Shown piece after piece: positions 2,626 through 44,692 of a DNA stretch of 61,102 bases (the stretch's first letter is position 1; every line of letters starts with the position of its first letter). The translations under genes were made by a program, and so were the position numbers. Under the pieces are notes generated by a model. That model was not told where the DNA came from and did no database searches. It worked only from the letters and a program-made list of their open reading frames with translations. The stretch is from Candidatus Yanofskybacteria bacterium RIFCSPHIGHO2_01_FULL_43_32 (GTDB lineage Bacteria > Patescibacteriota > Minisyncoccia > 2-02-FULL-40-12 > GWA2-44-9), in assembly GCA_001794125.1 (NCBI GenBank), contig MGJF01000004.1:1-61102 (forward strand), read 5' to 3'.

Positions 2626-2771
2626 GAATAGTTCACATAACCTCCATGCATGACTGCGGGGTGCACTTTTTTAAAATATTACTAATTTTAAAAAAGCACA
2701 CGCCCTCCGCCGGTTGCTTAGTATGCAGCTTACACTTGGCAATAAAGGGTCAAACTATTCTGAAATAAAGT
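2626..2771 (+). repeat. long-hairpin element E, copy 1
   Basis: gaatagttcac-a-aacc...AT-rich-loop hairpin...ccggttg...tggcaat...caaact; 6 copies in window. Confidence 0.85.
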
Positions 2772-2825
2772 GCTATCTGAGCTGTTGATTTTATGAGGAA
2801 ATGGTGGAATAATCAAAAACATTAA

Positions 2826-3227
2826 ATGACGATAAACCCCATTGCACAAGCGATTGTTGATTGGACGAGGCTCAAAATAAAGCTTCATTTTTCAGACCGT
2901 GTTATCTATTTTAAGGAAAAACAAATTTGGTGGATAGCTATCGGACAGAATATTGGAGATGAACAGAATGGAAAGAATTCTAACTTTGAAAGGCCAGTTC
3001 TGGTACTAAAGAAATTTAACATGAATATGTTTTTGGGTGTCCCTATTTCTACTAAGATTAAAGACGACCAATATAAACATATCTTTACCAATAATGGCAC
3101 TCAATTCTCCGCAAATTTATCTCAAATTCGAGTTTTTAGTAGCAAAAGACTTTTACGCAAAGTTGGAGTTATGGAAAATTCTGATTTTGAACAAGTGAAA
3201 GAGGTGCTTAATAGTGGGATAAAATAA
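2826..3227 (+). CDS. PemK/MazF-family endoribonuclease toxin (orphan)
   Basis: IWWIAIGQNIGDEQNGK...RPVLVLKK...GVPIST...QIRVFSSKRL, typical PemK-like motifs; no adjacent antitoxin ORF. Confidence 0.85.
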   Translation: MTINPIAQAIVDWTRLKIKLHFSDRVIYFKEKQIWWIAIGQNIGDEQNGKNSNFERPVLVLKKFNMNMFLGVPISTKIKDDQYKHIFTNNGTQFSANLSQIRVFSSKRLLRKVGVMENSDFEQVKEVLNSGIK

Positions 3228-3279
3228 CGGCTCCCCCTTGCGGGGGAGCCTCGGAACCCTATTTCCAGGGTCAAAATGT
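3221..3279 (-). ncRNA. candidate small RNA convergent on pemK-like gene
   Basis: minus-strand TTGACT(3310-3315)-N18-TATACT(3286-3291) promoter, 5-bp hairpin, then GGCTCCCCC-GCAA-GGGGGAGCC hairpin plus T-rich tail. Confidence 0.55.
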
Positions 3280-3417
3280 ATTTAGAGTATAGCATGTCAA
3301 GCGGTCGGTAGTCAATAGTTATCAACAATTCGTCAAAGTGACATAAAAGCAATGGGACTACGATTTTGACTCTGCCCATCTTTAGATATATAATCATGAA
3401 AAAGATTTAACGTTTTT

Positions 3418-4104
3418 ATGAAATTAAATATTAAAGAACTACTCGATTTTCTTGATGATAAGAAAGATTCCCAAATGGGTGATGCCAATGCCATAATTGC
3501 TGTTCTCGGTGAGGATTTAAACGCTTCTGCATATAAACATTTTAGAGGAGGTAAGGTAGAAATTCTTAATGATTCAGTTCTTCCCGGTACTAATAAGGGT
3601 AAAAGATTAGATCGATGGATATTAGATAAGACTAATAATAATTTATTTCAATGTGAGATTAAGAATTGGGCAGCAACCGCCATTGGAGGTAAGTCATTGA
3701 AATCTGATGCAAGTATTGAAGAAACTAAAAAGATTGTTGAATATTACTGGAAACGCGAATTAAATAACAACCTTTCAAGCAAGGGGGAACACCCAAATGG
3801 TGTTACCAAGGTATTGCTTAAAATGAAACTACCTGACAAGCACAGTAAAATAAAGGTTCAACCGCTACTTATCTATTGGATGCCAATTTCTTCAGATATA
3901 GACGGGTTACATCCATTATCTGTTGTTTCTGTAAAATCACTTCATTTACCAATGGTGACTGAATTTTCAAAACTTTATGTTTTTTCTGTGTCCCTATACC
4001 TTCGCCAGTTGTATAAAAACGGGAAGGGGCAAAAACTTATTGACATAGACACACCACATTTTGAACATAGAATTAAAATATTAAATAAATTGGGGGATAA
4101 ATAA
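3418..4104 (+). CDS. putative PD-(D/E)XK nuclease-like protein
   Basis: RLDRWI...FQCEIKNW resembles the D...E-x-K catalytic motif; own TTGACT-N17-TATAAT promoter. Confidence 0.5.
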   Translation: MKLNIKELLDFLDDKKDSQMGDANAIIAVLGEDLNASAYKHFRGGKVEILNDSVLPGTNKGKRLDRWILDKTNNNLFQCEIKNWAATAIGGKSLKSDASIEETKKIVEYYWKRELNNNLSSKGEHPNGVTKVLLKMKLPDKHSKIKVQPLLIYWMPISSDIDGLHPLSVVSVKSLHLPMVTEFSKLYVFSVSLYLRQLYKNGKGQKLIDIDTPHFEHRIKILNKLGDK

Positions 4105-4105
4105 A

Positions 4106-4330
4106 AGCGAAGCCCCCACTCCTTTAGGCGATATTGCTTGAGTAGATACAAACAAACGAACATTTATAAAGTTTTCAGGAATAATAAAAATTTAGCCGGA
4201 AAATCCCCTTAGGGAGGAACGGATGCTAGAATTTTTATCCTGAAAACAAAAAAATGGAGTATTGTTTGTCTATTGAGAGCAGCCGAAGGCAATACAGAGT
4301 ATGCGCTTAAAGGGGTGAGGGCGGAGCGAC
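4106..4330. repeat. ~220-bp imperfect long hairpin (MITE-like or structured RNA)
   Basis: nested complementary segments: cccccactcctttaggcg/cgcttaaaggggtgaggg, tagatacaaacaa/ttgtttgtcta, gttttcagga/tcctgaaaac. Confidence 0.65.
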
Positions 4331-4340
4331 TAATACAACA

Positions 4341-4607
4341 ATGAACCTAATCATAAATTTTACAGAAAAGAGAGGAGAGGTGGAACTAAAACTCCAGGAA
4401 GACAAAAGGTTGATAGACACCTTGACTTTTGAGTTTGAGGCTAACTTGGACTCGGTGTTGATAGTGGCTGTTGACAAAATTTTAAAAAGGAATAGAATAG
4501 ATACATCGTCTTTAAAAACAGTAAAGGCCATCGGAAGGGTTGATAAGGGAAGTTCCGCTTACAAAATAGTCCAGACCTTTATAGAGGCCATAAAAGCAAG
4601 CAAGTAA
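4341..4607 (+). CDS. short TsaB-like protein
   Basis: 88 aa; LIVAVDKILKRNRID..LKTVKAIG..SSAYKI resembles the TsaB N-terminal half. Confidence 0.5.
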   Translation: MNLIINFTEKRGEVELKLQEDKRLIDTLTFEFEANLDSVLIVAVDKILKRNRIDTSSLKTVKAIGRVDKGSSAYKIVQTFIEAIKASK

Positions 4608-4968
4608 GCCATTATTGCAGGTTCTTAAATGCTCATAAGTCCGCCGGTCGGCGGTGTGAATATTTAAGAATCTAACAATTTGCCCCCAATTGTTTTGTCC
4701 AGAATCAATCGAATAATTTAATATAAAGAATCCGTCAAGCACGACAGGAGAGAGCGTGTTTGTTAAGTTTTTGTCCAAGAGCGAAAGCGATTGGAAACAA
4801 AAAGTTAACCCAGCCCCACTTTTCATAATTAAACATACTGGTCATCGTATGGCATGGTACATGCGTTACGGTTGCTTGTGGAGTTTGAAAATTAAAAGTG
4901 GAGCTGGGTGACAATTTTCTAACAACTCAGCGTCGCAGAAACTGCTTGCCTCGTTGAGAAAATAAGTC

Positions 4969-8129: not shown

Positions 8130-11100
8130 ATGGACTTATCAAGCATAAAATTAAAGATTGCTTCTCCAGACGATATAATGTCATGGTCATATGGAGAGGT
8201 GACAAAACCGGAAACCATCAACTACCGGACCCAGAAACCGGAGAGAGACGGTTTGTTTTCCGAGTCAATTTTCGGCCCCACGAAAGACTGGGAATGTTAT
8301 TGCGGCAAATATAAGAGAATCCGGTATAAAGGAATCATCTGCGACAGATGCGGAGTTGAAGTAACGCGCTCAATCGTCAGAAGAGAAAGAATGGGCCACA
8401 TTAAACTTGCCGCCCCCGTTGCTCACATCTGGTTCTTAAGAGGCGTGCCTTCCAAAGTTGCCACTGTTTTAGGGGTTTCCTTGCCTGAACTGGAAAGAGT
8501 GATTTATTTCGCGAGCTATATCATTACAAGCGTGAATGAAGACCTGAAAGCCGAAGCGATGAAGAGGATTGAGTCGGAATTCAAATCCAAACTAAAGAAC
8601 TCCAAGAATGCCGGCGAAGAGGAATCACTGAAAGAATTAAAAGACCGCGAGAAGAATAATTTAAAAAATATGCTGAAGTATCAGATAATTTCCGAACTTG
8701 ATTTCAGGGACCTTTCTTCCAAGTACGGCGAAGTGTTTGAGGCCTCGATCGGAGCGGAAGCGGTCAGAAAACTTTTGGAAGAGCTGGACATGGAAGAAAT
8801 GCTTTCCGAATTGGAAGGAGAAGCCAAGAACGAATCAAATCCTTTGGAAATAAGAAAAATATCAAGGCGGCTCAAGTACCTGAAAGGAATGATAAAGGCT
8901 GGAATTCGTCCGGAGTGGGCGATAATCACCATTCTCCCGGTCATTCCGCCGGCATTAAGACCGATGGTTCCTTTGGACGGAGGCCGTTACGCCACTTCAG
9001 ATTTAAATGACTTATACAGGAGAGTAATAAACAGAAACAACCGTTTAAAGCATTTGCTTGAATTAAAAGCGCCTGAAGTCATCACCAAAAACGAAAAAAG
9101 AATGCTTCAGGAAGCCGTTGACGCCTTGATAGACAACTCAATGAGAAGGGGACAGATAACCACTGCCGCTTCAACCGGCCAGAAGAGGGCCTTAAAATCT
9201 TTGGCTGACATGCTCAAAGGAAAACAGGGCCGGTTCAGGCAGAATCTGCTGGGCAAAAGGGTGGATTATTCGGGAAGGAGCGTTATCGTTATCGGTCCGG
9301 AATTAAACTTAGCCGAATGCGGATTGCCCAAACAAATGGCTTTGGAGCTGTTCAAGCCGTTTGTTGTCGGAATTTTAATAAGAAAAGAACTTGCCCATAA
9401 TATTAAATCAGCGGGCCGGTTGATAGAACAGGAGACCGCGGATGTGTGGGCCGCTTTGGAAGAAGCGATGAAAAACAAATTAGTTTTGTTGAACCGCGCT
9501 CCGACCCTGCACCGTTTATCCGTGCAGGCGTTTGAGCCGATTCTTATAGAGGGTAAAGCCATTAAAATCCCGGCCTTGCCTACGCACGCTTTCAACGCCG
9601 ATTTCGACGGAGACCAGATGGCCGTTCATTTGCCGCTGACGATTGAAGCCCAGAGAGAAGCTAAGGAATTAATGCTTGCCAGCCACGGAGTTTTGAAACC
9701 GGCCACGGGAGAGCCTGTCGCTTCGCCAAGCCACGACGTGTCTTTCGGTGTTTACTATTTGACCAGCATGTCAAACGGCGCAAGAGGAGAAGGCAAGACA
9801 TTTTCCTCGCGGTATGAAGCGCTCTTGTCTTTTGAGAACGACCTTACCGATTTAAGAGCTAAAATAAAAGTTCCGAACCCTGACCATCAAATCGACGATA
9901 GTCAGCCGAAAATGATAGAGACGACTCCGGGCCGCATGATATTCAACAAGGCCTTGCCGAAAGGACATGTGTTCGTGAACAGAACTTTGACCAAACCGGA
10001 CCTGAAAGTTATCGGTTCCGACATCTGGGACGAATTTGGAAAAGAAGCTACTGTTGTTTTTCTGGATAAAGTAAAAGACCTCGGATTTCATTATGCCACA
10101 ATATCAGGCATTTCATGGGGCATGAATGATTTGAGAATTCCGGTTGAAAAGCCCGGTATCATTAAAGAGGCCGACCAAAAAATAGAAGAAAATAAAGCAT
10201 TATACGAAGACGGTCTGCTTACCGAATATGAGAGGCGTTCAAAAGCAATCGAAATATGGAATACCACCAAATCAAAACTCTCCGTTCTCGTTAAGAAACA
10301 GCTTAACCCCGATGATTCCGCTTTTATGCTCGTTGATTCCAAATCCAGAGGAACCTGGGGAACATTGGACCAGATGATGGGAATGAGAGGTATTTTCGCC
10401 AATCCGGCGGGGGAACTTATTGAATTGCCGGTGAGAAATTCTCTTAAAGAGGGCTTAACTTCGCTTGAATATTTCATATCCACTCACGGAGCCAGAAAAG
10501 GATTGGTGGATACCGCTTTGAAAACCGCCACTGCCGGATATTTGACGAGGCGTTTGGTTGATGTGGCGCAGGACATCGTCGTTACCGAAGCAGATTGCAA
10601 AGATAAAGAAGGATTTGTAATGCATGCCGAGGACGGCAAGGTAAGCGGTGAGACCTTGGGCAGAAGAGTGAAGGGTCGGGCTGTGCTGGAAGATATAATC
10701 GGACTCGACGGTGAGGTTATTGTTAAGAAAAATAAAATAGTAGATAAAGAATCAGCCAAGAAAATTGAAACTTTAGGATTAAAGACCATCAAGGTCCGCT
10801 CGGCCATAAAGTGCAAGGCCTATACCGGTATTTGCCAATTATGCTACGGATACGACCTTTCCAAGAACGAACTGGTTGATATAGGCGAAGCGGTCGGTAT
10901 TGTTACCGCCCAGGCAATCGGAGAACCGGGAACCCAGCTGACGATGAGAACCTTCCATACCGGAGGCGTTGCCGGCGGAGCCGATATCACCATGGGTTTG
11001 CCCCGGGTTGAAGAAATTTTTGAAGCCCGTCCGCCGACATTCAAAGCGCTGGTCGCTGATGTCGACGGTAAGGTTTTGGCGGTGGAAGACAGAGGCAAAC

Positions 11101-11717
11101 AGAAAGTCTTAGCCGTTGAAGTCGCCCCTTCGGCAGGCTCAGGGCAAGCGGGGGAGAAGAGAGAATACCTCGTGTCTCCTAATATTACTGTTACCGTGGC
11201 GGCCGGCGATTTAGTTACTGTCGGCCAGCAATTGAGCGAAGGCCATGTTGACCTCAAAGAATTATTTAAAACTACCGACAGTATTGATTTAGTTGCAAGA
11301 TATATCATCAAGGAAGTACAGGCAATTTATTCGCCGACCGGAGACAGTATTAACGACAAGCACGTTGAGCTGATAGTCAGACAGATGTTCTCAAGAGTGA
11401 AAGTCCTTGATTCCGGAGACACTGATCTCTTGGCTGGCGATACCGTTGAAAAGAGGACCGCCTGGATTGAGAATGAAAAAGCTAAAGACAACAAAAAGAT
11501 AGAAGCGACATTTGAACAATTATTGCTTGGTATCACCAAAGTATCTTTGACCACCGACAGTTTCCTCTCGGCCGCTTCCTTCCAGGAAACAGCCAGAGTC
11601 CTTATCGATAGCGCAATCCTCGGCAAAGAAGATTACTTAAGAGGTTTGAAAGAGAATGTTATTATTGGACGGTTGATACCGGCGGGGACGGGGTTCGGCA
11701 ACGAAATGGAGGAATAA
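8130..11717 (+). CDS. rpoC: DNA-directed RNA polymerase subunit beta'
   Basis: NADFDGDQM catalytic motif, N-terminal Zn finger, GEPGTQLTMRTFH. Confidence 0.99.
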   Translation: MDLSSIKLKIASPDDIMSWSYGEVTKPETINYRTQKPERDGLFSESIFGPTKDWECYCGKYKRIRYKGIICDRCGVEVTRSIVRRERMGHIKLAAPVAHIWFLRGVPSKVATVLGVSLPELERVIYFASYIITSVNEDLKAEAMKRIESEFKSKLKNSKNAGEEESLKELKDREKNNLKNMLKYQIISELDFRDLSSKYGEVFEASIGAEAVRKLLEELDMEEMLSELEGEAKNESNPLEIRKISRRLKYLKGMIKAGIRPEWAIITILPVIPPALRPMVPLDGGRYATSDLNDLYRRVINRNNRLKHLLELKAPEVITKNEKRMLQEAVDALIDNSMRRGQITTAASTGQKRALKSLADMLKGKQGRFRQNLLGKRVDYSGRSVIVIGPELNLAECGLPKQMALELFKPFVVGILIRKELAHNIKSAGRLIEQETADVWAALEEAMKNKLVLLNRAPTLHRLSVQAFEPILIEGKAIKIPALPTHAFNADFDGDQMAVHLPLTIEAQREAKELMLASHGVLKPATGEPVASPSHDVSFGVYYLTSMSNGARGEGKTFSSRYEALLSFENDLTDLRAKIKVPNPDHQIDDSQPKMIETTPGRMIFNKALPKGHVFVNRTLTKPDLKVIGSDIWDEFGKEATVVFLDKVKDLGFHYATISGISWGMNDLRIPVEKPGIIKEADQKIEENKALYEDGLLTEYERRSKAIEIWNTTKSKLSVLVKKQLNPDDSAFMLVDSKSRGTWGTLDQMMGMRGIFANPAGELIELPVRNSLKEGLTSLEYFISTHGARKGLVDTALKTATAGYLTRRLVDVAQDIVVTEADCKDKEGFVMHAEDGKVSGETLGRRVKGRAVLEDIIGLDGEVIVKKNKIVDKESAKKIETLGLKTIKVRSAIKCKAYTGICQLCYGYDLSKNELVDIGEAVGIVTAQAIGEPGTQLTMRTFHTGGVAGGADITMGLPRVEEIFEARPPTFKALVADVDGKVLAVEDRGKQKVLAVEVAPSAGSGQAGEKREYLVSPNITVTVAAGDLVTVGQQLSEGHVDLKELFKTTDSIDLVARYIIKEVQAIYSPTGDSINDKHVELIVRQMFSRVKVLDSGDTDLLAGDTVEKRTAWIENEKAKDNKKIEATFEQLLLGITKVSLTTDSFLSAASFQETARVLIDSAILGKEDYLRGLKENVIIGRLIPAGTGFGNEMEE
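11126..11145 (+). repeat. in-frame CCTTCG..GGCTCAGG-family palindromic element in rpoC (encodes PSAGSG)
   Basis: matches copies in ssb, groEL and at 54658. Confidence 0.7.
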
Positions 11718-11720
11718 TCC

Positions 11721-11849
11721 GAATAGCTCACACAACCTCTATACGTACGGAGGGAGACACCTTTTTAAAAATTTACTAATTTTGTAAAAAGTGTCTCCCT
11801 CCGCCGGTTGTTTACTTGATAGTTGGCAATTGGCAAGCGAGTTCAAACT
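11721..11849 (+). repeat. long-hairpin element E, copy 2
   Basis: cggagggagacac...gtgtctccctccg stem; immediately after rpoC stop. Confidence 0.85.
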
Positions 11850-11858
11850 AAATATACC

Positions 11859-11886
11859 TCAACGGCTCACACATGTGAGCCGTTGA
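11859..11886. repeat. 28-bp palindrome P28 (TCAACGGCTCA-cacatg-TGAGCCGTTGA)
   Basis: perfect 11-bp arms, 6-bp spacer. Confidence 0.9.
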
Positions 11887-11920
11887 TTTTAGGGTAAGAA
11901 AGTGGGAAGATTGGGAGATT

Positions 11921-12502
11921 ATGGGCGACATGAAGAAGTTAACTGAAGAGATTAGGGTGCATGTTTTTATTGATGCTTCAAACTTATGGCAAGCACAAAA
12001 AGCCAAAGGAAGCATGTTTGATTATGAAAAATTAAAGGCTTTTTTAAAAAATAAATTTACCGCTTCTGAGTTAAAAGTTTTCTATTACACAGCGTATCCA
12101 GCCGAAGGTACTAGGGACTATAGTCTTGATGGAAAACATAAGTTTTTTACCTATCTTAAAAAGGGACTCGGGTTTGATGTCAAAAAGAAAGAGCTAAAAA
12201 GGATAACGACACATAGTGATGCTGGTGATTCGATTCAAGAAAAAGGAAATATGGATGTTGAAATGACAATTGATGTAATACACAATGCTTCTAAATATGA
12301 CATTGCCGTCTTGTTCTCGGGTGATTCTGATTTTTTGGCATTAGTGACCTATTTGAAGAATATTGGTAAAAAGGTTTATATTTTTTCTTCAAAGAACAAC
12401 GTTTCCCAAGAATTAAGAACTGGAGGAGACGGTTATTTTGACGTGTTAAATTTGGAGGAAGATATTTGGCGCAGAGAACTCAAACATCGAGGTAGTAAGT
12501 GA
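11921..12502 (+). CDS. NYN domain (LabA/DUF88, PIN-like) ribonuclease
   Basis: VFIDASN, KGNMDVEMTID, LFSGDSDFLAL acidic motifs. Confidence 0.9.
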   Translation: MGDMKKLTEEIRVHVFIDASNLWQAQKAKGSMFDYEKLKAFLKNKFTASELKVFYYTAYPAEGTRDYSLDGKHKFFTYLKKGLGFDVKKKELKRITTHSDAGDSIQEKGNMDVEMTIDVIHNASKYDIAVLFSGDSDFLALVTYLKNIGKKVYIFSSKNNVSQELRTGGDGYFDVLNLEEDIWRRELKHRGSK

Positions 12503-12577
12503 TAAAAAAGCAACCCTCCTTGCGGAGGGTTGCCCTTAGATGTAATACCCTTTTGGTTCATGGTAGAACCAGAAGAT
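12503..12577 (-). ncRNA. candidate small RNA convergent on NYN gene
   Basis: minus-strand TTGACT(12608-12613)-N18-TATACT(12584-12589) promoter, 10-bp hairpin, then GCAACCCTCC-GCAA-GGAGGGTTGC plus T-run. Confidence 0.55.
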
Positions 12578-12627
12578 GTATAGAGTATAGCATGCCAGCC
12601 GGCCGGCAGTCAATGGTTGTCAACAGA

Positions 12628-12653
12628 TAGCGGCTCATGTAGTGAGCTGTTGA
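12628..12653. repeat. degenerate P28 copy
   Basis: tagcggctcatgtagtgagctgttga followed by ttttaggg, as in other copies. Confidence 0.65.
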
Positions 12654-12685
12654 TTTTAGGGGGAGAAAGTGGGATGATTTAAGAT

Positions 12686-13219
12686 GTGAATGAAGAAAAA
12701 ATTGAGTTACAAAAAAGAGAGTTAGCAGATATCAAGACGTATTTTCTTGACATGGCTAAGTATTCTGATAAAAGACAACATGAGGTTGACGACCACTTCA
12801 CATTTAGTCAATTGACAGTTGCCTCAATCATTTTTGCCCTGTCTCTAAATATTTTAAAAATAGTTGCGGAAAGTTTTATTTGGGTAAGAATATTTTACAT
12901 AGGCGGTCTCGTTTTGTTGTTATTATCGTTGATGTTTGGGGTTATTCATTTTAACATGAAAAATAAGTTTTGGAAGAGTAATGGTTTAAAATTTAGTGAA
13001 GTTTTTAATTTATGGAAGAGCGCGGAAAACAGGTCTTTACTAAGCAAAGACGAGGAATTTATTACCAGCATAAAGATTCAGACAAAATTAGGTGAGAATG
13101 CGATCTTGGGCAAAAAAGATAGCATATCACAAGATGGACGGGCTTCAGATTGGCAATCCATGACCTTAATTTTTGGTGCACTACTCGAAACTATTTCTTT
13201 GATTATTACTATTTTTTAG
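12686..13219 (+). CDS. hypothetical membrane protein (about 3 TM)
   Basis: GTG start; two adjacent hydrophobic helices plus a C-terminal helix; AT-rich island. Confidence 0.75.
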   Translation: MNEEKIELQKRELADIKTYFLDMAKYSDKRQHEVDDHFTFSQLTVASIIFALSLNILKIVAESFIWVRIFYIGGLVLLLLSLMFGVIHFNMKNKFWKSNGLKFSEVFNLWKSAENRSLLSKDEEFITSIKIQTKLGENAILGKKDSISQDGRASDWQSMTLIFGALLETISLIITIF

Positions 13220-13246
13220 CCTCACTCTCTTGGATTATGACAAACC

Positions 13247-13274
13247 TCAACGGCTCACACATGTGAGCCGTTGA
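13247..13274. repeat. P28 copy (spacer cacatg)
   Basis: identical to 11859-11886. Confidence 0.9.
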
Positions 13275-13331
13275 AATTTTAGGGAAAAGTTGTGCCTTGG
13301 CTAGGAGAGGCTTGGGTAGTAGAATTTAATC

Positions 13332-14345
13332 ATGGAAGATAGTTTAAACAATCATCCCACATATGTGGATCTTTTTAGTGGGGCAGGAGGGTTTAGTTTG
13401 GGATTTGATAATAATGGTTTTATAAATATTTTTTCTGTTGATATGGAGCCTAGTTTTTGTGAGACTTATAGCAAAAATTTTCCAGGGCACAGGTTAATCC
13501 AAAAAGATATAACAAACCTTACTAAGCAAGAAGTTTTAAGCCTTATTAAAGGTAAAAGAATAGATGTGGTTATTGGGGGTCCACCGTGTCAGGGTTTTAG
13601 TATGGCTGGCAATATTGGAAGAAAATTTGTAGACGATTCTAGAAATAGTTTATTAATGGAATTTGCAAGAATGGTAGAAATAATTAAGCCCAGTTATTTT
13701 ATCATGGAAAATGTTGCACGCCTATATAACCACAACAAGGGGAACACCAGAGAAGAGATAGTTAAAAAATTTATTAAATCAGGCTACAAAGTTGACTGTA
13801 GAATTTTAAATTCGGCAGATTATGGAGTTCCACAAATAAGAAAAAGAATTATTTTTGTTGGATCAAGGGTTGGAGGAAAAATATTATTTCCTGAGAGGGA
13901 GGTTGAAAGATATATAACAACGGAGGAGGCCTTAAGAGAATTTACTTCAAAAGATCTCAACAAAGATTCTAACATTTACAACCATGAGACAATGAAACAC
14001 TCAGGTCAAATGTTAAAAAAAATGAGCTATGTATCAGATGGAGGAAACAGGTTCGAGATACCTAGTCACATAAGACCAAAATCAGGCGATGTGAGAAAAT
14101 ACATAAGATATAACAGCAATAAACCATCAATTTGCGTTACTGGTGACATGAGAAAAGTTTTTCACTATTCGGAAAATAGGGCTCTAACTGTTAGGGAGTT
14201 AGCAAAACTTCAGTCATTTCCAAACGATTTTATTTTTGTAGGTTCTCGTATTTCTCAGCAGCAACAAGTTGGTAATGCCGTGCCGCCCTTGATGGCTTCA
14301 GCTATTGCTAGAGTGGTAAAAAAAATGATTAAAAATGATAAATAA
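13332..14345 (+). CDS. DNA (cytosine-5) methyltransferase
   Basis: motifs FSGAGG, GGPPCQGFS, ENV, QIRKR, GNAVPP. Confidence 0.95.
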   Translation: MEDSLNNHPTYVDLFSGAGGFSLGFDNNGFINIFSVDMEPSFCETYSKNFPGHRLIQKDITNLTKQEVLSLIKGKRIDVVIGGPPCQGFSMAGNIGRKFVDDSRNSLLMEFARMVEIIKPSYFIMENVARLYNHNKGNTREEIVKKFIKSGYKVDCRILNSADYGVPQIRKRIIFVGSRVGGKILFPEREVERYITTEEALREFTSKDLNKDSNIYNHETMKHSGQMLKKMSYVSDGGNRFEIPSHIRPKSGDVRKYIRYNSNKPSICVTGDMRKVFHYSENRALTVRELAKLQSFPNDFIFVGSRISQQQQVGNAVPPLMASAIARVVKKMIKNDK

Positions 14346-15348
14346 AGAATTACCCAAGATAAACTTCATAGGAAACAAAGAAAATATTTCCGGATGGATA
14401 TCCAGTTTTTTCCCTGCCGGTATTAAATCCGTGTTTGATGCTTTTTCTGGTGGTGGCTCAATTGGTTATCAAGCAAAAAAAATGGGATTTAGTGTTGTGA
14501 GCAACGATATATTGAGGGTCAATTACTTATTAGCGAAATCACTTATTGAAAACAATAGCGAGATTTTAAATGATTCAGACATAGAGGTTGTATTTAGAGG
14601 GAAACCTTTTCGTGGCTTTATGTTTGAAAATTACTCGAATGTATTCTTTTTTCCAGAAGAATGTATGGAGCTTGATTTATATAGAAAGAATATAGAAGAT
14701 TTATCGAATGAATTTAAAAAGGCCATTGCCATTTCCCTGATTAGGAGGGCGATGGTCAGAAAAATGCCATACTCTAGGTTTAATATAAAATGGGATAAGA
14801 TTAAACAACTAAGAGATGAAGAATATAGCTATAATAAGTATGGTAGACGAAGAGCATATCACAATATTTCTTTTAAGGATCATTTTTTAGAAAATGTTAA
14901 GGATTATAACAATGCAATATTTGATAACAATAAAAAAAATATCGCACTTAATGACGATACTTTTGACTTACTCGGAACAGTTAAGGCAGATTTAATTTAT
15001 CTTGACCCACCATATACGGGAACAATGAACAATTATTTCAGTTTTTATGGGCCACTTGATGAATACATAAGCTCAAAAAAACTAACGCCTTTTAAAAACA
15101 ATTTTATAGACAAACAAACTTCTGTGGCACTATTTGATAATTTATTTTCCAAACTATCAAGCTATAAGTATTGGTTTTTAAGTTATAACAACAGTTCATA
15201 TCCGTCCAAGGAAACCCTAATGGACTTATTAAGTAAGTATTGCAATAATGTTAAGGTTGTTGAAAGAGGACATGAATATAAAATCACAGGCAAAGATAAT
15301 AAACAAAAAAATAAGGAGTATTTATTTATAGCTACCAATATTAAATAA
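14335..15348 (+). CDS. DNA N6-adenine methyltransferase (Dam/FokI-like alpha group)
   Basis: DAFSGGGS motif I and YLDPPY motif IV. Confidence 0.93.
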   Translation: MINKELPKINFIGNKENISGWISSFFPAGIKSVFDAFSGGGSIGYQAKKMGFSVVSNDILRVNYLLAKSLIENNSEILNDSDIEVVFRGKPFRGFMFENYSNVFFFPEECMELDLYRKNIEDLSNEFKKAIAISLIRRAMVRKMPYSRFNIKWDKIKQLRDEEYSYNKYGRRRAYHNISFKDHFLENVKDYNNAIFDNNKKNIALNDDTFDLLGTVKADLIYLDPPYTGTMNNYFSFYGPLDEYISSKKLTPFKNNFIDKQTSVALFDNLFSKLSSYKYWFLSYNNSSYPSKETLMDLLSKYCNNVKVVERGHEYKITGKDNKQKNKEYLFIATNIK

Positions 15349-15357
15349 TAAAACAAT

Positions 15358-16425
15358 ATGACGAGTCAAAATTACGAAGATTATTGGAAGTTAACATTAG
15401 AGTATAGTGATATTAATAGTGACAAATTTTTAGGAACTTTGAGTATAATAGTGAATTTCATAGACAAGAATAGCTCAGAAGAATACTCAAAAGAAAAATA
15501 CGACAGACTACAACAAGAGGTTTTTGACACCTTTCCAAAAGAAGATATGGGCTCTGTTCGTAAAAGTATAAATCAGTTTATTAAACTGGGTTTCATCAAT
15601 TTTGAATTACGGTCGTATCATCCCAACACTAAAGACTTTATTAATGCAAAGACAAAAAGAAAAAGGCAGTCTATTTTTTCAAGGATAGTTTACACAAATT
15701 CAAGTTTTAGTCGTTCTGTTACCAACGATTCGAATGGTCGTGAAATAAATTTTTTGATAAAAACATTAGAAGAAAACGGTAAGTTGCATAAGAGAGACAT
15801 CATATCTCTAATGACAGTAGATGTTTCAGAAATAGCGAGCGGTTATTTAAATAGTCAAGAATTAAGCGACAGAAGGGTATACGCCGAAGAAATCGATTTT
15901 ATAGAAAGAAAATATAATCAAGTTTCTTATTTGTGGGGTGTTTTGGGTAAACTGGATGACCTGATTATAATCGATGATTATTTATATTTTCAAGAAGATG
16001 CCCAAGTAATTCTTGACTCTGAAATTAAGAAGGACAAATTGAGAGACCCATATTTACACAGAATATACAAAAATCAATTAAAAGAAGAAAGCACTGAAAT
16101 TTTAGGTGGTATCAAGTGTATGGTAGAAAAATTAGTCTACCCGACGCTTGTTGCAAGTCACATAAAACCATTTGTCAAATCCTCTGAAGAAGAATCATAC
16201 GATCCGGAAAATGGCTTGTTGTTAAGCCAAAACATGGACGGGCTGTTTGATAAGGGTTACATATCATTTAATGATGATGGGAGTATTATTTTATCAGATA
16301 AATTAGACCCCGAATTAAGAGATTATCTGAGCAAATACGTTCTCGACGGTGTTTTTGTTGGAGCCAAAAGGAAAGAGTATCTGAATTACCATAGAGAAAT
16401 TTTTGGAGAGAGATTGGGTATTTAG
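15358..16425 (+). CDS. HNH restriction endonuclease
   Basis: C-terminal LVASHIKP...ENGLLL...DGLFDKGYISF HNH_2-type domain, directly after two MTases. Confidence 0.88.
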   Translation: MTSQNYEDYWKLTLEYSDINSDKFLGTLSIIVNFIDKNSSEEYSKEKYDRLQQEVFDTFPKEDMGSVRKSINQFIKLGFINFELRSYHPNTKDFINAKTKRKRQSIFSRIVYTNSSFSRSVTNDSNGREINFLIKTLEENGKLHKRDIISLMTVDVSEIASGYLNSQELSDRRVYAEEIDFIERKYNQVSYLWGVLGKLDDLIIIDDYLYFQEDAQVILDSEIKKDKLRDPYLHRIYKNQLKEESTEILGGIKCMVEKLVYPTLVASHIKPFVKSSEEESYDPENGLLLSQNMDGLFDKGYISFNDDGSIILSDKLDPELRDYLSKYVLDGVFVGAKRKEYLNYHREIFGERLGI

Positions 16426-19527: not shown

Positions 19528-19555
19528 TCAACGGCTCACATGTGTGAGCCGTTGA
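19528..19555. repeat. P28 copy (spacer catgtg, inverted relative to 11859 and 13247)
   Basis: tcaacggctcacatgtgtgagccgttga; right edge of the AT-rich island. Confidence 0.9.
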
Positions 19556-19583
19556 GGACTGGCCGCTTAGTTAATCATGTTTT

Positions 19584-26446: not shown

Positions 26447-26455
26447 TTTGTTGCA

Positions 26456-26588
26456 GAATAGTTCACACAACCTCCATGCATACGGAGGGAGACGTCTTTT
26501 TAAAAATTTACTAATTTTGTAAAAAGTGTCTCCCTCCGCTGGTTGCTTTGGTTGTTAAGTGATGATTGGCACTAGAAGGTCAAACTCT
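26456..26588 (+). repeat. element E, copy 3
   Basis: near-identical to copy 2. Confidence 0.85.
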
Positions 26589-26801
26589 CTCTGATATTTT
26601 CAAGTCAAAATTATTACCCCTATGTCCAGTGTAGGGGTAGATTTATTATTTTGGAATACATATCCAATCAACTTCAGCTCTTGATTCGCCTCGTCAAAGT
26701 GATTCGAAATGATGAGGCTGCGCTTGATACTCCAATGCTTGCTTTATTTAAAACATATTGTATAATAAAGTAGCTTAGTTCTTTTAAGGAATGGGTGACG
26801 G

Positions 26802-27389
26802 ATGGGCGAAAGAGTTCTTCATTTTTTGTTAATCAATGGTTATGGATGTCATCTGGACACTCCGCTTGGTCGGGTCTATTTGCCAAGGATGCTGAAATTT
26901 ATCAAAGAGAATGTACCTGACTACATAATTTTGCTTGGTGGTTTTACTCAACGTAAGAGTGCACCGGGTGTTTCGGAAGCCAAGCTGATGTTGACTTGGT
27001 TTTTTGACCAAATGTCTACTCCCGATCAAAAACGTTTTCTGATTGAAGAAAATTCCTATACGACCCTGGAGAATAGCAGGAATGGAGCGATTTTGATTCC
27101 TCGGATTCTTGGTTTAACTATGTCTGATGACCATCTTCCAGAAATTAAAATTACTCATGGTTGTGAAGCAACCCGAGCGGCAAATATAATCATGCTCGAC
27201 CGGTACTTTATGGGTGGTTTGGTTAAATCAATCGACGACATCACTGTTGAGACGGCGAGCTGGGAACGAGCTGACCCGTTCAGACAAGTAAAAACCTTGA
27301 TTCACGATAAGTTGGCAATTACATATCCGTGGCTTGGTCTAGCCGAACGAGAGCGCAGAAAGCGCATCCGCCGTTCTGCAGAGATTTAA
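26802..27389 (+). CDS. DUF218/YdcF/ElyC-like protein
   Basis: LLGG...SEAKLM...IEENSYTTLENS motifs. Confidence 0.75.
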   Translation: MGERVLHFLLINGYGCHLDTPLGRVYLPRMLKFIKENVPDYIILLGGFTQRKSAPGVSEAKLMLTWFFDQMSTPDQKRFLIEENSYTTLENSRNGAILIPRILGLTMSDDHLPEIKITHGCEATRAANIIMLDRYFMGGLVKSIDDITVETASWERADPFRQVKTLIHDKLAITYPWLGLAERERRKRIRRSAEI

Positions 27390-27446: not shown

Positions 27447-27594
27447 TACTTTATTTCAGAAGAGTTTGAATCTTAATTGCCAAATATCAAATATTTACTA
27501 AGCAACCGGCGGAGGGCGTGTGCTTTTTTAAAATTAGTAATATTTTAAAAAAGTGCACCCCGCAGTCATGTATAGAGGTTGTGTGAGCGATTCT
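27447..27594 (-). repeat. element E, copy 4 (inverted)
   Basis: reverse complement nearly identical to copy 1. Confidence 0.85.
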
Positions 27595-27620
27595 TTATTT
27601 TCCGATAAGAATCTCTACCA

Positions 27621-27685
27621 CCCCGGCACCAAGCTAATCCGCTGACCGCCATTAAGAAAAGGGGCGGGCTTGGTGCGGGGCAGGC
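27621..27685. repeat. 63-bp hairpin element, copy 2
   Basis: ccccggcaccaagc...gcttggtgcgggg. Confidence 0.85.
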
Positions 27686-27690
27686 ATCGC

Positions 27691-28662
27691 CTATATTTTT
27701 ATCTCTACAACATCTCCTTCGGTGATGATATAGTCCCGGCCGACGGTGCGGACGAGGCCTTTAGAGCGGGCGGGGACGAGGCCACCGGCTTCAAGAAGTG
27801 TTTTCCAATTTATGACCTCGGCGCGGATAAATAACTTTTCAAAATCGGTGTGGATGGCGCGGGAAGCCTTCGGTATCGCTTCGCCTTCATGGGCGGTCCA
27901 AGCGCGGGTCTCGTCTTCTCCGGTTGTAAGAAAGGTGACCAACCCTAAGGTCTTGTAGCTTTGTTTGATAAGACGGTCCAAGCCGGGTTCTTTCATATTG
28001 AAACCTGCCAGATATTCTTTTTTTTCGTCTTCGGTTGCTTCGGATAAGATCAGTTCAAGCGGAGTAGAAAGAACAACATAGTCCCTTCCGTTCATAGCCT
28101 CCAATAATTTATCGTCCGGCTGCCAGTTGGCAGACATTTGGGATTCTGAAACATTTAAAACAAAAATAACCTTTTTCTCGCTCAATAAATCCAATTCCGG
28201 CAATTCGCCAGCTGGTGAACTTTTTTTCTTGTCTGCCCTTTTTTCTTTTGTTTGAAGGTCGGCAAGATCCAGTTCGGTCTGGATAATTTCTATGTCGCCG
28301 ACGGGGTCGATTTTGTTGTGGACGTGGGTAATATTCTTGTCTTCAAAAACTCTGACAACATGGGCGATGGCGTCAACTTCACGGATATTGGCAAGGAATT
28401 TATTTCCAAGACCTTCGCCTTGCGAGGCGCCTTTCACCAGTCCGGCAATATCATAGAATTCTATGGTCGTATTTATTATCTTTTTTGAATTTGAAAGTTC
28501 GGCCAAAGGCTTCAGGCGTTCATCGGGCACGGCAACAACACCGACATTCGGGTCAATGGTAGTGAAGGGATAATTCTGAATATCAACCTGCTTGTTTGTC
28601 AGAGCTTTAAAGAGCGTGGATTTACCCACATTCGGAAGTCCGACGATGCCTATCGAAAGCAT
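27691..28662 (-). CDS. ychF: Obg-like ATPase YchF (short coiled-coil)
   Basis: [30 protein letters not shown]-terminal TGS domain. Confidence 0.95.
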
Positions 28663-37879: not shown

Positions 37880-38917
37880 TTATTCTAATCCCATCTTTTC
37901 TTTTACTTCTTTTAGTGTAGAACCGGCTAATGCTTTAGCTTTTTCTTCGGATTTTATTAAAATAGACATAACGTAGTCAGGATTTTTCTTGAGTTCGTTA
38001 TATTTTTCCTGAAACGGTTTCAAAAAGCCCACAACAACTTCGGCGAGGTCGTTCTTGAAGTCCGCATATGATTTGCCTTCGTATTCGGCTTCAATGTTTT
38101 TTATCTCTTTTCCCGAGAGCATGTGGAAGATGGTGATAAGATTTGAGATTGCCGGCTTTTCTTCCTCGTTGTAGTAAACTTCTTTTCCGGAGTCGGTGAC
38201 GGCTTTTTTAATTTTTAACCTAATCTCATTTGGAGTATCAACTAGAAAAATACAACTATCGTCTCCGGCCTGCCCCGCACCAAGCCCGTCCCCTTTGCTG
38301 GCGGTCAGCGGATCAGCTTGGTGCGGGGTCTTGGACATTTTTTTGCCCGGATCCTGGAGGGACATTATTCTGGCACCTTCAGTCAGTTTTGCTTTGACCG
38401 GTTCAAATGTCTGGCCGAACATGGAATTAAATTTTTTGGCAATCTCGTTGGCTAAGTCGATGTGGGGCATCTGATCTTCTCCGACAGGAACAAGATTGGA
38501 TTTATAAATTAAAATATCGGCGGCCATTAAAACGGGATAATCTAAAAGCCCCATGTGGTTGTACTTGGGGGATTTGGCGAGCTGTTCTTTATGGGTAGGC
38601 AGGCGATCCAGCCAGCTCACCGGTGTAATCGTATTAAATATCCAAGCGAGTTCCGTATGCTGGGAGACTTTTGACTGGCGGATAAGGAGTGCTTTGTCGG
38701 GGTCAACTCCGGCGGCTAAATAATCCAAAACTACGTCCATGACTTGCCCGCGGTATTTCTTTGGGTCAAAAGGGGTAGTAATGCCGTGGTAGTCCACAAC
38801 GGCAAAAATTGCCTGGTCGGTTTTGTCCTGAAGTTCAATCCAGTTTTTGATGGCTCCGAGGTAGTTGCCGAGATGCAATTTTCCCGACGGTCTTATGCCA
38901 GAAAACACTTTGGTCAT
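37880..38917 (-). CDS. trpS: tryptophan--tRNA ligase with in-frame palindromic insertion
   Basis: SGIRPSGKLHLGNY, VPVGEDQ, KKMSK; start chosen at MTKVF. Confidence 0.96.
   Translation of the reverse strand: MTKVFSGIRPSGKLHLGNYLGAIKNWIELQDKTDQAIFAVVDYHGITTPFDPKKYRGQVMDVVLDYLAAGVDPDKALLIRQSKVSQHTELAWIFNTITPVSWLDRLPTHKEQLAKSPKYNHMGLLDYPVLMAADILIYKSNLVPVGEDQMPHIDLANEIAKKFNSMFGQTFEPVKAKLTEGARIMSLQDPGKKMSKTPHQADPLTASKGDGLGAGQAGDDSCIFLVDTPNEIRLKIKKAVTDSGKEVYYNEEEKPAISNLITIFHMLSGKEIKNIEAEYEGKSYADFKNDLAEVVVGFLKPFQEKYNELKKNPDYVMSILIKSEEKAKALAGSTLKEVKEKMGLE
38268..38330 (-). repeat. 63-bp hairpin element, copy 3, in frame in trpS
   Basis: encodes TPHQADPLTASKGDGLGAGQA directly after KKMSK. Confidence 0.85.
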
Positions 38918-41345: not shown

Positions 41346-41438
41346 AACCGCTTTAAAGAGACACGATTATCAATCAGTTAATACGATTAAATGACTAAAT
41401 AGATCATGACTTACTATGAGTATTGGTTTTTACTAATG

Positions 41439-41522
41439 TGGGCGAGGGGAGATTTGAACTCCCACGAGCTTGCGCTCATAGCGCTCTGAACGCTACATGT
41501 CTGCCAGTTTCATCACTCGCCC
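41439..41522 (-). tRNA. tRNA-Leu(CAG)
   Basis: GGGCGAG/CTCGCCC acceptor, TAGCG-TTCAGAG-CGCTA anticodon arm, long variable arm, TTCAAAT T-loop; CCA not encoded. Confidence 0.95.
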
Positions 41523-43437: not shown

Positions 43438-43442
43438 ATATT

Positions 43443-43667
43443 TTAGGCAAAAAATACTCTGGCGACGGAAATGCCGAGAAATAGAACGGCTAAAACTATT
43501 GTAGTCCAAAAAATTATTTTCTCTGCGCCGCGCTTCGTGCTGTATTCCAAAGACCCGCCTCCGAAAGTTGAGGACAGCCCTGTTCCGCGCTGTTGAAGCA
43601 AAATGGCGGCTATAAGCAATAAGGATAATCCGATTTGGGCATAGGTTAATATTTGTGCGGTGTTCAT
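43443..43667 (-). CDS. secG: preprotein translocase subunit SecG
   Basis: LLQQRGTGLSSTFGG...KRGAEK. Confidence 0.92.
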   Translation of the reverse strand: MNTAQILTYAQIGLSLLLIAAILLQQRGTGLSSTFGGGSLEYSTKRGAEKIIFWTTIVLAVLFLGISVARVFFA

Positions 43668-43668
43668 T

Positions 43669-44019
43669 TTATATTACGGCTTTTTTAGTGGCTGATACGG
43701 CCAGATTTATTATGGTAATTATGACGACGGCGTATAAAAGCGTTGCCGTGTCTTTGATTGATACGAAGTCAAATATATAATCAACTGTCCATAAAAGCAA
43801 CCCGTTGATGACTAAAGTGAAAAGTCCGAGAGTCAGGATTATAATGGGCATGGATATCATTTTCAGCACCGGCTTGACGGTAAGATTCAACAGTCCCAAG
43901 AATGCGCCGGCCAACAGATATTCTTTCCAGCTTCCATTCACGACAAAGCCCGGAACGAAGTAGTAAGCCGCATAAAGAGCCAGTGAATTGCCGAATATTC
44001 TGATTATAAAACCAATCAT
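43669..44019 (-). CDS. 4-TM phage holin-like family membrane protein (YvlD/DUF360)
   Basis: LGLLNLTVKPVLKMISMPIIILTLGLFTLVINGLLL. Confidence 0.85.
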   Translation of the reverse strand: MIGFIIRIFGNSLALYAAYYFVPGFVVNGSWKEYLLAGAFLGLLNLTVKPVLKMISMPIIILTLGLFTLVINGLLLWTVDYIFDFVSIKDTATLLYAVVIITIINLAVSATKKAVI

Positions 44020-44089
44020 ACTATGGTTATAACGATAGCATCAAAAGGATTAAAATTCAACCATTGACACCTGCCTGCCTGCCGGCAGG

Positions 44090-44221
44090 CAACCTCCATG
44101 CATGCGGAGGGAGACGCCTTTTTAAAAATTGATTAATTTTGTAAAAAGTGTCTCCCTCCGCTGGTTGTTTGGTTAAATAGATGACAACTGGCAATAGAGA
44201 TTCAAACTCTCTTGGAATAAG
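44090..44221 (+). repeat. element E, copy 5 (5' end replaced by CCTGCC palindrome)
   Basis: gcggagggagac...gtctccctccgc stem. Confidence 0.8.
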
Positions 44222-44304
44222 GTGTCATAGAATTCTTCTTTTGACCATAAAACACAACCGTGCTAATATAGACGATAATCTCTGTTCTTTTCCAAGGAGA
44301 TTTC

Positions 44305-44523
44305 ATGAAGCAAGGACTATCATCAAAACGTAAAATCGTAAGAACTTTAGAAGCAGGAATAGTATTAGAGAAAGACATTGTTTTTCCTGCTAGATTGAGT
44401 GCTTCATTTGTTCTTGGGGGATGGTCGAGGATAGCAAATAATAAGAAAGAGTTTCGTGAGTTGCTAAAGACGGGGTTAGAACTTTCTCCCATATCCGAGG
44501 TTTTGATAAAATGGAAAGAGTAA
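44305..44523 (+). CDS. 72-aa hypothetical protein between inverted E copies
   Basis: TTGACC-N17-TAATAT promoter, AGGAGA RBS, downstream hairpin plus T-run. Confidence 0.6.
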   Translation: MKQGLSSKRKIVRTLEAGIVLEKDIVFPARLSASFVLGGWSRIANNKKEFRELLKTGLELSPISEVLIKWKE

Positions 44524-44562
44524 ATTCATGTATTGCCGTCTGGTTAGTCCAGCGGTTTTTTT

Positions 44563-44692
44563 GTTTGACCTTTTCTTATCAATTGTCATTTAGCTACCAA
44601 AACAACCGGCGAAGGGTGTGCCCTTTTATAAAATTGCAAGATTTTAGAAAAGGGGCACCCCGCAGCATGCATAGAGGTTGTGTGAACCTATC
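44563..44692 (-). repeat. element E, copy 6 (inverted), overlapping the uvrC stop
   Basis: same conserved flanks as the other copies. Confidence 0.8.

What the first reader, a model, noticed from the sequence alone, without database searches (positions are those of the whole stretch)
2626..44692. Six-copy ~130-bp long-hairpin element family E at core/accessory junctions
Seen: copies at 2626, 11721, 26456 and 44090 (+) and 27447 and 44563 (-). They share gaatagttcac-a-caacc, a long stem with an AT-rich loop, ccggttg, tggcaat and caaact. Two stem subtypes (ggagggagacac/gtgtctccctcc vs ggggtgc/gcacac-ccc) differ while keeping pairing. Four copies start at or just past the stop of a core gene (rodA, rpoC, ychF, uvrC), and every copy points into accessory DNA. 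Inference: a structured RNA or a recombination/landing site for gene capture; no recombinase in the window.
Basis: partly seen in the sequence, partly recalled or inferred. Interest (0 to 1): 0.72.

Follow-up and report, generated by a model that had tools for sequence, protein, structure and literature searches.

The report
Old hairpin repeat bounding variable genes
A roughly 150-base non-coding repeat with a conserved hairpin sits at the edges of conserved genes in tiny groundwater bacteria (Patescibacteria), often as inverted pairs around one small fast-changing gene; it resembles the small mobile repeats (MITEs) of other bacteria and none seems to have been described in this phylum.

Summary
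The window has exactly six copies, against none expected by chance. The same family occurs 248 times in about 1 Mb of related Patescibacteria DNA from groundwater (Yanofskybacteria-like MAGs). It matches no Rfam family, phage or plasmid.

The element is about 150 nt, and up to about 200 nt with its outer repeats. It has terminal inverted repeats, conserved unpaired blocks and a hairpin of about 25 bp kept by compensatory changes.

The 5' end abuts a conserved gene, at its stop codon or its promoter. The 3' end faces short, poorly conserved genes. Inverted pairs with 3' ends inward outnumber the opposite arrangement 43 to 11, and they enclose unrelated cargo. Gene junctions with the element vary among species far more often than junctions without it (30/41 against 13/80).

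Copies are old: no two at different loci exceed 94% identity. No transposase, recombinase or target duplication was found.

Best reading: an ancient MITE/ERIC/Correia-like repeat retained as a boundary module. Whether it acts as RNA, as single-stranded DNA or as recombination homology is unresolved, because no expression data exist.

The parts
2621..2770 (+). E copy 1 (stem subtype B), 16 nt after the rodA stop, pointing at a PemK/MazF toxin gene
   Evidence: neighbours
11716..11863 (+). E copy 2 (subtype A, perfect hairpin), 3 nt after the rpoC stop; followed by a palindromic terminator, then NYN, an unknown gene and a restriction-modification island
26451..26600 (+). E copy 3 (subtype A), left member of an inverted pair; its 5' end faces the promoter side of rpsF (- strand)
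27449..27598 (-). E copy 5 (subtype B), right member of the pair around the DUF218 gene; 98 nt past the ychF stop
44075..44222 (+). E copy 4 (subtype A, variant 5' end), left member of an inverted pair; its 5' end faces the promoter of a holin-like gene (- strand)
44548..44697 (-). E copy 6 (subtype B variant), right member of the pair; the uvrC stop codon lies inside its first bases
26802..27389 (+). Cargo of pair 3/5: 195-aa DUF218-like gene (weak Pfam hit)
44305..44523 (+). Cargo of pair 4/6: 72-aa ORF. The same uvrC-holin slot holds unrelated cargo in L032, a GC-rich non-coding element in L027, and only one E in L037
2826..3227 (+). PemK/MazF-like toxin gene on the 3' side of copy 1
11921..16425 (+). 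Accessory block on the 3' side of copy 2: NYN RNase-like gene, unknown 177-aa gene, C5 and N6 DNA methylases, HNH endonuclease
1477..2610 (+). rodA, conserved gene abutting the 5' end of copy 1
8130..11717 (+). rpoC, conserved gene abutting the 5' end of copy 2
27691..28662 (-). ychF, conserved gene on the 5' side of copy 5
44688..46064 (-). uvrC, conserved gene abutting the 5' end of copy 6

Best explanation
E is an ancient, non-coding, MITE-like interspersed repeat of a clade of groundwater Patescibacteria.

Anatomy (shown):
- Terminal inverted repeats GAATAGTT...AACTATTC, extended in some copies to about 30 nt ((A)GCGAAGCCCAGCACTTTATTTCAGAATAG).
- Nearly invariant unpaired blocks.
- A central hairpin of about 25 bp whose pairing is kept by compensatory and wobble changes.

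Placement (shown): the 5' end is pressed against a conserved gene, either its stop codon or the -35 box of its promoter. The 3' end faces short genes that differ among species. Two copies in inverted orientation often bracket one such gene.

How it works (inferred): copies once arrived by transposition, and those at the borders of variable slots have since been kept by selection as boundary modules. The hairpin, folded in a single strand and most likely in read-through transcripts, would give a processing or stability site that insulates conserved genes from the neighbouring slot. The repeated 150-nt sequence would also offer portable homology at which adjacent genes are swapped by recombination.
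For: - Family and copy number: 6 copies in the window, 248 in 984 kb of related loci, and k-mer depth of the core about 70 times that of the flanks.
- Inverted repeats at the ends, and the same repeats bounding a second repeat family F.
- Orthologous junctions are found empty, with one E, or with a pair.
- Hairpin covariation: 94.8% standard pairs, 11 pairs changed on both sides, 0 of 500 shuffles as high, 48-60% when partners are slid.
- Placement: the 5'-side gene is co-directional in 104 of 170 copies with a median gap of 9 nt. The stop codon lies inside E in 22 of 80 cases. Divergent 5'-side genes lie a median 44 nt away.
- Pairs: 43 convergent against 11 divergent, p=1.4e-5, median inner length 525 nt, 41 unrelated cargo clusters among 45.
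- Variable junctions: 30/41 with E against 13/80 without, p=1e-9.
- Among E copies in different genomes, 66 pairs share only the 5' flank, 12 only the 3' flank, and 2 share both.
- Old and constrained: maximum identity 94% among 9321 pairs at different loci, and orthologous copies are no more alike than random pairs (0.78 against 0.77).
Against: - No transposase or recombinase, no autonomous relative and no target-site duplication was found.
- No RNA data exist.
- The strand evidence conflicts. In 61% of copies E lies in sense just after a co-directional gene, yet the hairpin pairs better on the antisense strand.
- The hairpin is not followed by a T run on either strand, so it is not a standard terminator.
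- The test for crossovers inside E was negative, though underpowered.
- Some 3' neighbours are housekeeping genes.
Confidence: 0.45

Rival explanations
1. E is a site-specific recombination site used as a folded single strand, in the manner of integron attC sites or pdif modules. An unidentified recombinase encoded elsewhere in the genome would insert and exchange small gene cassettes next to E or between E pairs.
For: - Cargo differs at orthologous slots while E stays in place.
- E plus its 3'-side gene occurs as a unit in different 5' contexts: L107/L116, L061/L094 and L079/L033.
- One strand folds better and carries conserved bulged bases.
- The apex loop sequence is conserved.
- Pairs are of unlike subtypes: no B-B pair among 10, although B makes up 63% of copies.
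Against: - No integrase or other recombinase lies near any of about 250 copies.
- Copies are scattered and inverted, not in same-direction arrays.
- The attC R''/R' boxes are not matched.
- The same cargo was never seen with both E copies at two different sites.
Confidence: 0.18
2. E is a structured RNA element that works only as RNA: either a cis-acting 3'-UTR or leader element, or a small RNA. Its mobile-element features would be incidental.
For: - Covariation with many G-U to G-C or A-U exchanges.
- The apex is replaced by larger folded modules in some copies, as in expansion segments of RNAs.
- E starts within about 10 nt of stop codons.
- Unpaired blocks are strongly conserved.
Against: - 39% of copies are not downstream of a co-directional gene.
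- The better-folding strand is usually preceded by a terminator, so it should be poorly transcribed.
- No conserved promoter was found in or before E.
- No Rfam family matches.
- Terminal inverted repeats and presence/absence differences point to DNA mobility.
Confidence: 0.17
3. E is a purely selfish MITE that still moves, or moved recently, between co-occurring Patescibacteria. Its placement only reflects where insertions are tolerated.
For: - Terminal inverted repeats, high copy number and intergenic position.
- Stop codons are supplied by the element.
- A second family, F, shares the termini.
- Insertions are tolerated at operon ends in compact genomes.
Against: - No pair of copies at different loci exceeds 94% identity.
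- Subtypes are shared across species, and orthologous copies have been kept for long periods.
- Compensatory changes in an internal hairpin are not needed for a transposase that binds the inverted repeats.
- The strong orientation rule is not expected from tolerance alone.
Confidence: 0.12
4. E is simply a large factor-independent transcription terminator.
For: A stable hairpin directly after many stop codons.
Against: - No T run follows the hairpin on either strand.
- The consensus scan does not call it a terminator, while it does call ordinary terminators next to E.
- Separate standard terminators flank E.
Confidence: 0.04

Closest known systems
ERIC/IRU elements of enterobacteria (127-bp imperfect palindromes); comparison from established knowledge
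   Same: Size about 130-150 nt and non-coding. Placed between genes in transcribed regions. Sequence strongly conserved across species, with presence/absence at orthologous sites. Variants carry internal insertions. No known transposase.
   Different: No sequence similarity, and a different phylum. E has a central hairpin plus asymmetric flanks rather than one long imperfect palindrome. E shows a strict orientation rule and inverted pairs around genes.
Correia/NEMIS elements of Neisseria; comparison from established knowledge, see review PMC10969869
   Same: MITE-like with terminal inverted repeats, in hundreds of copies next to genes. Co-transcribed hairpins that are RNase III substrates. Often beside variable genes.
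   Different: Correia elements have 26-bp repeats and a TA duplication. No duplication was found for E. RNase III cutting, IHF binding and promoter activity are untested for E.
MITE-bounded composite structures (TIME-COMPs, integron mobilization unit), PMC13367494
   Same: Two copies of a small non-autonomous element, mostly in inverse orientation, bracket unrelated cargo genes. The same site is found with a single copy or with different cargo.
   Different: TIME-COMPs have Tn3-type ends and 5-bp direct repeats, move with a known transposase, and lie on plasmids. E pairs are chromosomal, old, lack direct repeats, and have no known transposase.
Integron attC sites and Acinetobacter pdif modules; comparison from established knowledge
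   Same: Small, diverse, mostly unknown-function genes bounded by hairpin-forming or inverted sites. One strand folds better than the other.
   Different: No integrase, no arrays, and no attC or dif core motifs. E is longer and conserved in sequence, whereas attC sites are conserved mainly in structure.
REP/REPIN elements with RAYT transposases; comparison from established knowledge
   Same: Extragenic palindromes at gene ends, occurring as inverted doublets, with strand-specific hairpins.
   Different: REPs are 20-40 nt and doublets are tens of bases apart. E is 150 nt with genes between the pair members. No RAYT was seen.

Membership tests
MITE (miniature inverted-repeat transposable element) | Small (under about 500 bp), non-coding, many copies | tested here: met
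   About 150 nt; 248 copies in 984 kb. Reading frames are not kept between subtypes, as judged by reading the sequences.
MITE (miniature inverted-repeat transposable element) | Terminal inverted repeats | tested here: met
   GAATAGTT/AACTATTC in most copies, and about 30-nt repeats in a subset. The motif is found at 13 5' ends and 10 3' ends. Across all copies, end-to-end pairing is only slightly better than shuffled controls.
MITE (miniature inverted-repeat transposable element) | Target-site duplication flanking each copy | tested here: inconclusive
   No consistent direct repeat in the 7 copies with well-defined ends. One possible CTCA. The copies are old.
MITE (miniature inverted-repeat transposable element) | Related autonomous element or transposase with the same ends | tested here: not met
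   None lies between pairs or near copies. Only about 1 Mb was sampled and the Pfam summaries were truncated, so absence from whole genomes is not proven.
MITE (miniature inverted-repeat transposable element) | Evidence of mobility (presence/absence at orthologous sites; near-identical copies) | tested here: inconclusive
   Presence/absence among species is seen. No near-identical copies were found: maximum 94%.
Integron attC site | R''/R' core boxes (RYYYAAC ... GTTRRRY) at the base of the hairpin | tested here: not met
   E has ACACAAC ... GTTGCTT, which fits neither box fully (read).
Integron attC site | Same-direction arrays next to an intI integrase and attI | tested here: not met
   Copies are scattered and mostly inverted. 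No integrase lies near them.
Intrinsic terminator | GC-rich hairpin followed directly by a T/U run | tested here: not met
   The hairpin is followed by CCGCCGGTTG (sense) or AGTCATGCAT (antisense). It is not called by the scan.
Any Rfam RNA family | Score at or above the family threshold | tested here: not met
   Only a tRNA reaches threshold in the window. The permissive scan over two copies gives only chance-level hits.
MITE-bounded composite transposon (TIME-COMP type) | Two element copies bracketing cargo | tested here: met
   43 convergent pairs with diverse cargo.
MITE-bounded composite transposon (TIME-COMP type) | Direct repeats flanking the whole structure, and the same composite at several sites | tested here: not met
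   No flanking direct repeats at window pairs or at L032 (read). No cargo was shared between different pair sites.
REP/REPIN-RAYT | 20-40 nt palindrome with a conserved 5' tetranucleotide, and a RAYT gene flanked by REPs | tested here: not met
   The size and architecture differ. No Y1 transposase was seen among cargo or neighbours. Whole genomes were not searched.
Xer/dif-type module site | 28-bp site of 11-6-11 with XerC and XerD arms | not tested
   The dif sequence of this clade is unknown. No obvious ATAA-N6-TTAT core was seen by eye.

The most novel reading that the evidence does not exclude
E pairs may define a chromosome-wide set of 'slots' in Patescibacteria. In each slot, small accessory genes (toxins, nucleases, defence and unknown genes) would be exchanged between cells by DNA uptake and recombination at the conserved E arms, or by an undiscovered enzyme that reads the folded antisense strand. 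This would be a dispersed gene-cassette system without an integron, which also shields the neighbouring essential genes.
Probability: 0.2. Interest if true: 0.8.

Novelty: new member of a known kind. Interest (0 to 1): 0.52.

Why it matters
Patescibacteria have tiny, streamlined genomes, and papers on their gene exchange (PMC12455944) describe islands and competence genes but no vehicle for exchange. A repeat kept for long periods at about one copy per 10 kb in such genomes is unlikely to be junk.

Its tie to variable genes gives three things: a concrete handle on how these uncultured cells gain and lose small defence and toxin genes, a marker for accessory slots in fragmented MAGs, and an explanation for contig breaks in their assemblies.

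If the hairpin proves to be a transcript insulator or a recombination site, it would be the first functional repeat described in this phylum, to my knowledge from the literature searched.

Tried and rejected
- **Rfam:** searched at curated and at permissive thresholds, on both strands; no match.
- **Phage, plasmid and viral-contig searches:** nothing found.
- **Standard terminator:** rejected, because no T run follows the hairpin.
- **Promoter inside E:** only a weak ATGACT-16-TAAAAT match in subtype B. There is no conserved -10 box before or inside E, and downstream genes have their own promoters.
- **Peptide coding:** the frames differ between subtypes, as judged by reading the sequences.
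- **attC membership:** rejected on motifs, orientation and the lack of an integrase.
- **Target duplications:** none convincing.
- **Outer helix closing the whole element:** real in about a dozen copies, not general.
- **RNA-seq:** three small metatranscriptomes of the same study hold nothing from this genome, and none was found for a Hainich locus.
- **Population variants lacking E or cargo:** none were reliable; the joints seen are cross-matches between repeats, and none were seen.
- **Transposase hunt in 145 flanking proteins:** no recurrent mobile-element family, but the tool lists only the top 25 families.
- **Chimeric E copies expected from crossovers inside E:** no signal; only 12 pairs fall in the smaller class.
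- **Link between stem subtype and context:** none found.
- **The two unknown genes after copies 1 and 2:** they are not homologous.
Full report
**Observation.** The six copies are real and sit at the stated coordinates. A profile built from them recovers exactly six hits in the window, with E-values from 4e-40 to 3e-36 and nothing else below E=0.2 except their own antisense shadows. A two-block pattern hits 6 times against 0 in 100 shuffles. The repeat finder groups them independently. Covariance-model hits put the unit at about 150 nt. As DNA its z-scores are -3.2 to -8.7 against shuffles.

**Source and spread.** The RodA protein is encoded on NCBI record MGKR01000029.1 (assembly GCA_001794735.1) and on Rifle aquifer metagenome contigs. 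The element pattern occurs in six species-representative MAGs, two of them named Candidatus Yanofskybacteria. It also occurs in more than 113 metagenome stretches from the Rifle, Hainich and other groundwater sites. From the accession order I infer that the window is also a Yanofskybacteria-like MAG.

- In 984 kb of fetched loci there are 248 copies, 207 of them full length.
- In the metagenomes the k-mer depth of the core is about 70 to 200 times that of the flanks.
- There is no match in Rfam, viral contigs, phages or plasmids.
- Literature searches found no repeat family described in this phylum.

- GAATAGTTCACACAACCTCYATGCATGACTGCGGGG
- the hairpin, with apex RCTAA
- CCCTCCGCCGGTTG
- a looser stretch
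- TTGGCAATAGARGTTCAAACT, then TTCTGAAATAAA

The ends are inverted repeats (GAATAGTT/AACTATTC). In a subset they extend to about 30 nt, (A)GCGAAGCCCAGCACTTTATTTCAGAATAG. The same termini bound a second, GC-rich repeat of about 230 nt, here called F, with 8 copies. Some copies carry a 40-44 nt two-hairpin insert at the apex, or an insert of about 82 nt replacing it.

**Structure.** On 140 distinct copies aligned to a model of the antisense strand:

- 94.8% of cells form standard pairs.
- 11 of 19 pairs show changes on both sides (181 cells).
- No shuffle out of 500 reaches these values.
- Sliding the partners drops pairing to 48-60%.

The strand matters. The consensus fold is -16.5 kcal/mol for the antisense strand against -4.2 for the sense strand. 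Single-copy hairpins are more stable on the antisense strand in 129 of 152 copies. Wobble pairs that work only on the antisense strand number 204, against 32 that work only on the sense strand, and they are spread over six stem positions.

Two caveats apply. The alignment was fitted to the antisense model, and subtype B is inherited by many copies, so these counts are not independent events.

**Placement.** Genes here are simple longest-ORF calls. Among 192 unique full copies:

| Side of E | Gene direction relative to E | Copies | Median gap |
|---|---|---|---|
| 5' | co-directional | 104 | 9 nt |
| 5' | divergent | 66 | 44 nt |
| 3' | co-directional | 98 | 100 nt |
| 3' | opposite | 82 | 60 nt |

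- In 22 of 80 co-directional 5' cases the stop codon lies inside GAATAG.
- The 44-nt gap to divergent 5'-side genes just fits a promoter for a near-leaderless gene.
- The 3'-side gaps are filled by ordinary terminators or by terminator-promoter units.
- 5'-side genes are longer than 3'-side genes, median 314 against 155 aa.

Neighbouring copies within 3 kb, after merging split copies and removing duplicates, are convergent (3' ends inward) 43 times, divergent 11 times and tandem 15 times. The binomial p is 1.4e-5, and the median inner length is 525 nt. The 45 inner segments fall into 41 unrelated clusters. Their ORFs mostly lack Pfam hits and include no transposase or recombinase.

**Link to variable DNA.**

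- Orthologous junctions that carry E in at least one genome differ in content in 30 of 41 cases, against 13 of 80 junctions without E (odds ratio 14, p=1e-9).
- The uvrC-holin slot holds a 72-aa ORF in the window, unrelated genes in L032, an F element in L027, and a single E in L037. The uvrC-side copy is subtype B in the window and L032, and the holin-side copy is subtype A in both.
- Among pairs of E copies from different genomes, 66 share only the 5' flank, 12 only the 3' flank, and 2 share both.
- The reverse also occurs. E plus its 3'-side gene recurs in different 5' contexts, for example L061/L094, where the E core is 96% identical.
- In the window the 3' sides hold a MazF-like toxin, an NYN protein followed by a restriction-modification set, a DUF218 gene and a 72-aa ORF.
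- Housekeeping genes also occur on the 3' side elsewhere.

**Age.** No two copies at different loci exceed 94% identity, and the median is 78% over 9321 pairs. Subtypes are shared among genomes. Orthologous copies are no more alike than random pairs. Flanking proteins are only 58-92% identical, so neutral DNA would be scrambled. I therefore infer purifying selection on each copy rather than recent spread.

**Interpretation.** Shown: this is a new, old, constrained, MITE-like repeat family that marks the borders between conserved genes and variable slots. Inferred: it was spread by a transposase that is now unseen, and is retained as a boundary module.

I favour action of the hairpin in transcripts, as insulation or processing in the way described for ERIC and Correia elements. 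A side effect would be homology for swapping neighbouring genes after DNA uptake, which is plausible in this phylum (PMC12455944).

The conflict between context (sense strand) and pairing (antisense strand) keeps a single-stranded-DNA recombination site as a serious rival.

**Limits.** The loci were chosen because they contain E. The contigs mix related species. No expression data exist.

Noticed in passing
window 11857-11886, 13245-13274, 19528-19557, 26414-26459 (also L033 ~300-330, L135): A palindromic terminator-like repeat, CAACGGCTCACAYRTGTGAGCCGTTGA, occurs four times in the window and in related MAGs. Its right end (GTTGAY) doubles as the -35 box of the next promoter, for example for rpsF and for the PemK and NYN genes.
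   Followed up: partly
window 23820-23878, 27622-27680, 38299-38328: A third repeat family: a hairpin of about 59 nt, CCCCGCACCAARCTWATCCGCTRACCGCC...GGCGGG..TTGGTGCGGGG. One copy lies between ychF and E copy 5.
   Followed up: no
L027:966-1200; also L114:1968-2190, L113:6694-6881, L028:6437-6654, L071:3744-3947, L123, L105, L036: A GC-rich non-coding repeat of about 230 nt ('F') is bounded by the same terminal inverted repeats as E. Eight copies were found. It folds more stably than shuffles (z -2.5 and -3.4) and has no Rfam match. It is absent from the window.
   Followed up: partly
L032:4409-4599, L130, L050, L104, L040, L109, L085 (40-44 nt); L060:1835-2050, L106, L146 (~82 nt): Some E copies carry conserved extra modules exactly at the hairpin apex. 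One is a pair of small GC hairpins (CCCGAC...GTCGGG). The other is a larger folded insert that replaces the AT-rich upper stem.
   Followed up: partly
L061 ~3340-3450 (- strand) and L094 ~395-510: A leader conserved at about 90% identity, GGCAAGCCTGGGGCCCTGCAATTCCGYGGGGTGAGGGGT, lies between a consensus promoter and a 222-aa gene in two different genomic contexts. It may be a cis-regulatory RNA; it has no Rfam match.
   Followed up: partly
window 2777-2814, 11875-11912, 12642-12679 and 3272-3327, 12570-12625: Conserved non-coding stretches lie upstream of four accessory genes. GTGAGCYGTTGATTTTAGGG.AGAAAGTGG precedes the PemK, NYN and 177-aa genes. A 56-nt repeat precedes the 228-aa gene and lies about 60 nt further upstream of the 177-aa gene. 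They look like shared promoter or leader modules. The 228-aa and 177-aa proteins are not homologous.
   Followed up: partly
window 13332-16425: A compact restriction-modification set (C5 cytosine methylase, N6 adenine methylase, HNH endonuclease) lies in the block after rpoC. This is notable in a very small genome.
   Followed up: no
L134:5290-5480: A small membrane-protein ORF reads into a remnant of an E 5' part and ends there. This shows that deletions can fuse cargo genes to E fragments. My profile search missed this remnant.
   Followed up: no
window 31812-32421: 132-nt periodic repeats lie inside the 697-aa ORF 31527-33620. The motif DVWKS.D.G..W looks like Asp-box/BNR-type protein repeats.
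   Followed up: no
window 41438-41522 and 60758-60949: ARAGORN finds tRNA-Leu (- strand) and tRNA-Ser, while Rfam at its threshold listed only the second. The stretch 60758-60792 repeats the first 35 nt of the tRNA-Ser and may be another tRNA or a fragment.
   Followed up: no
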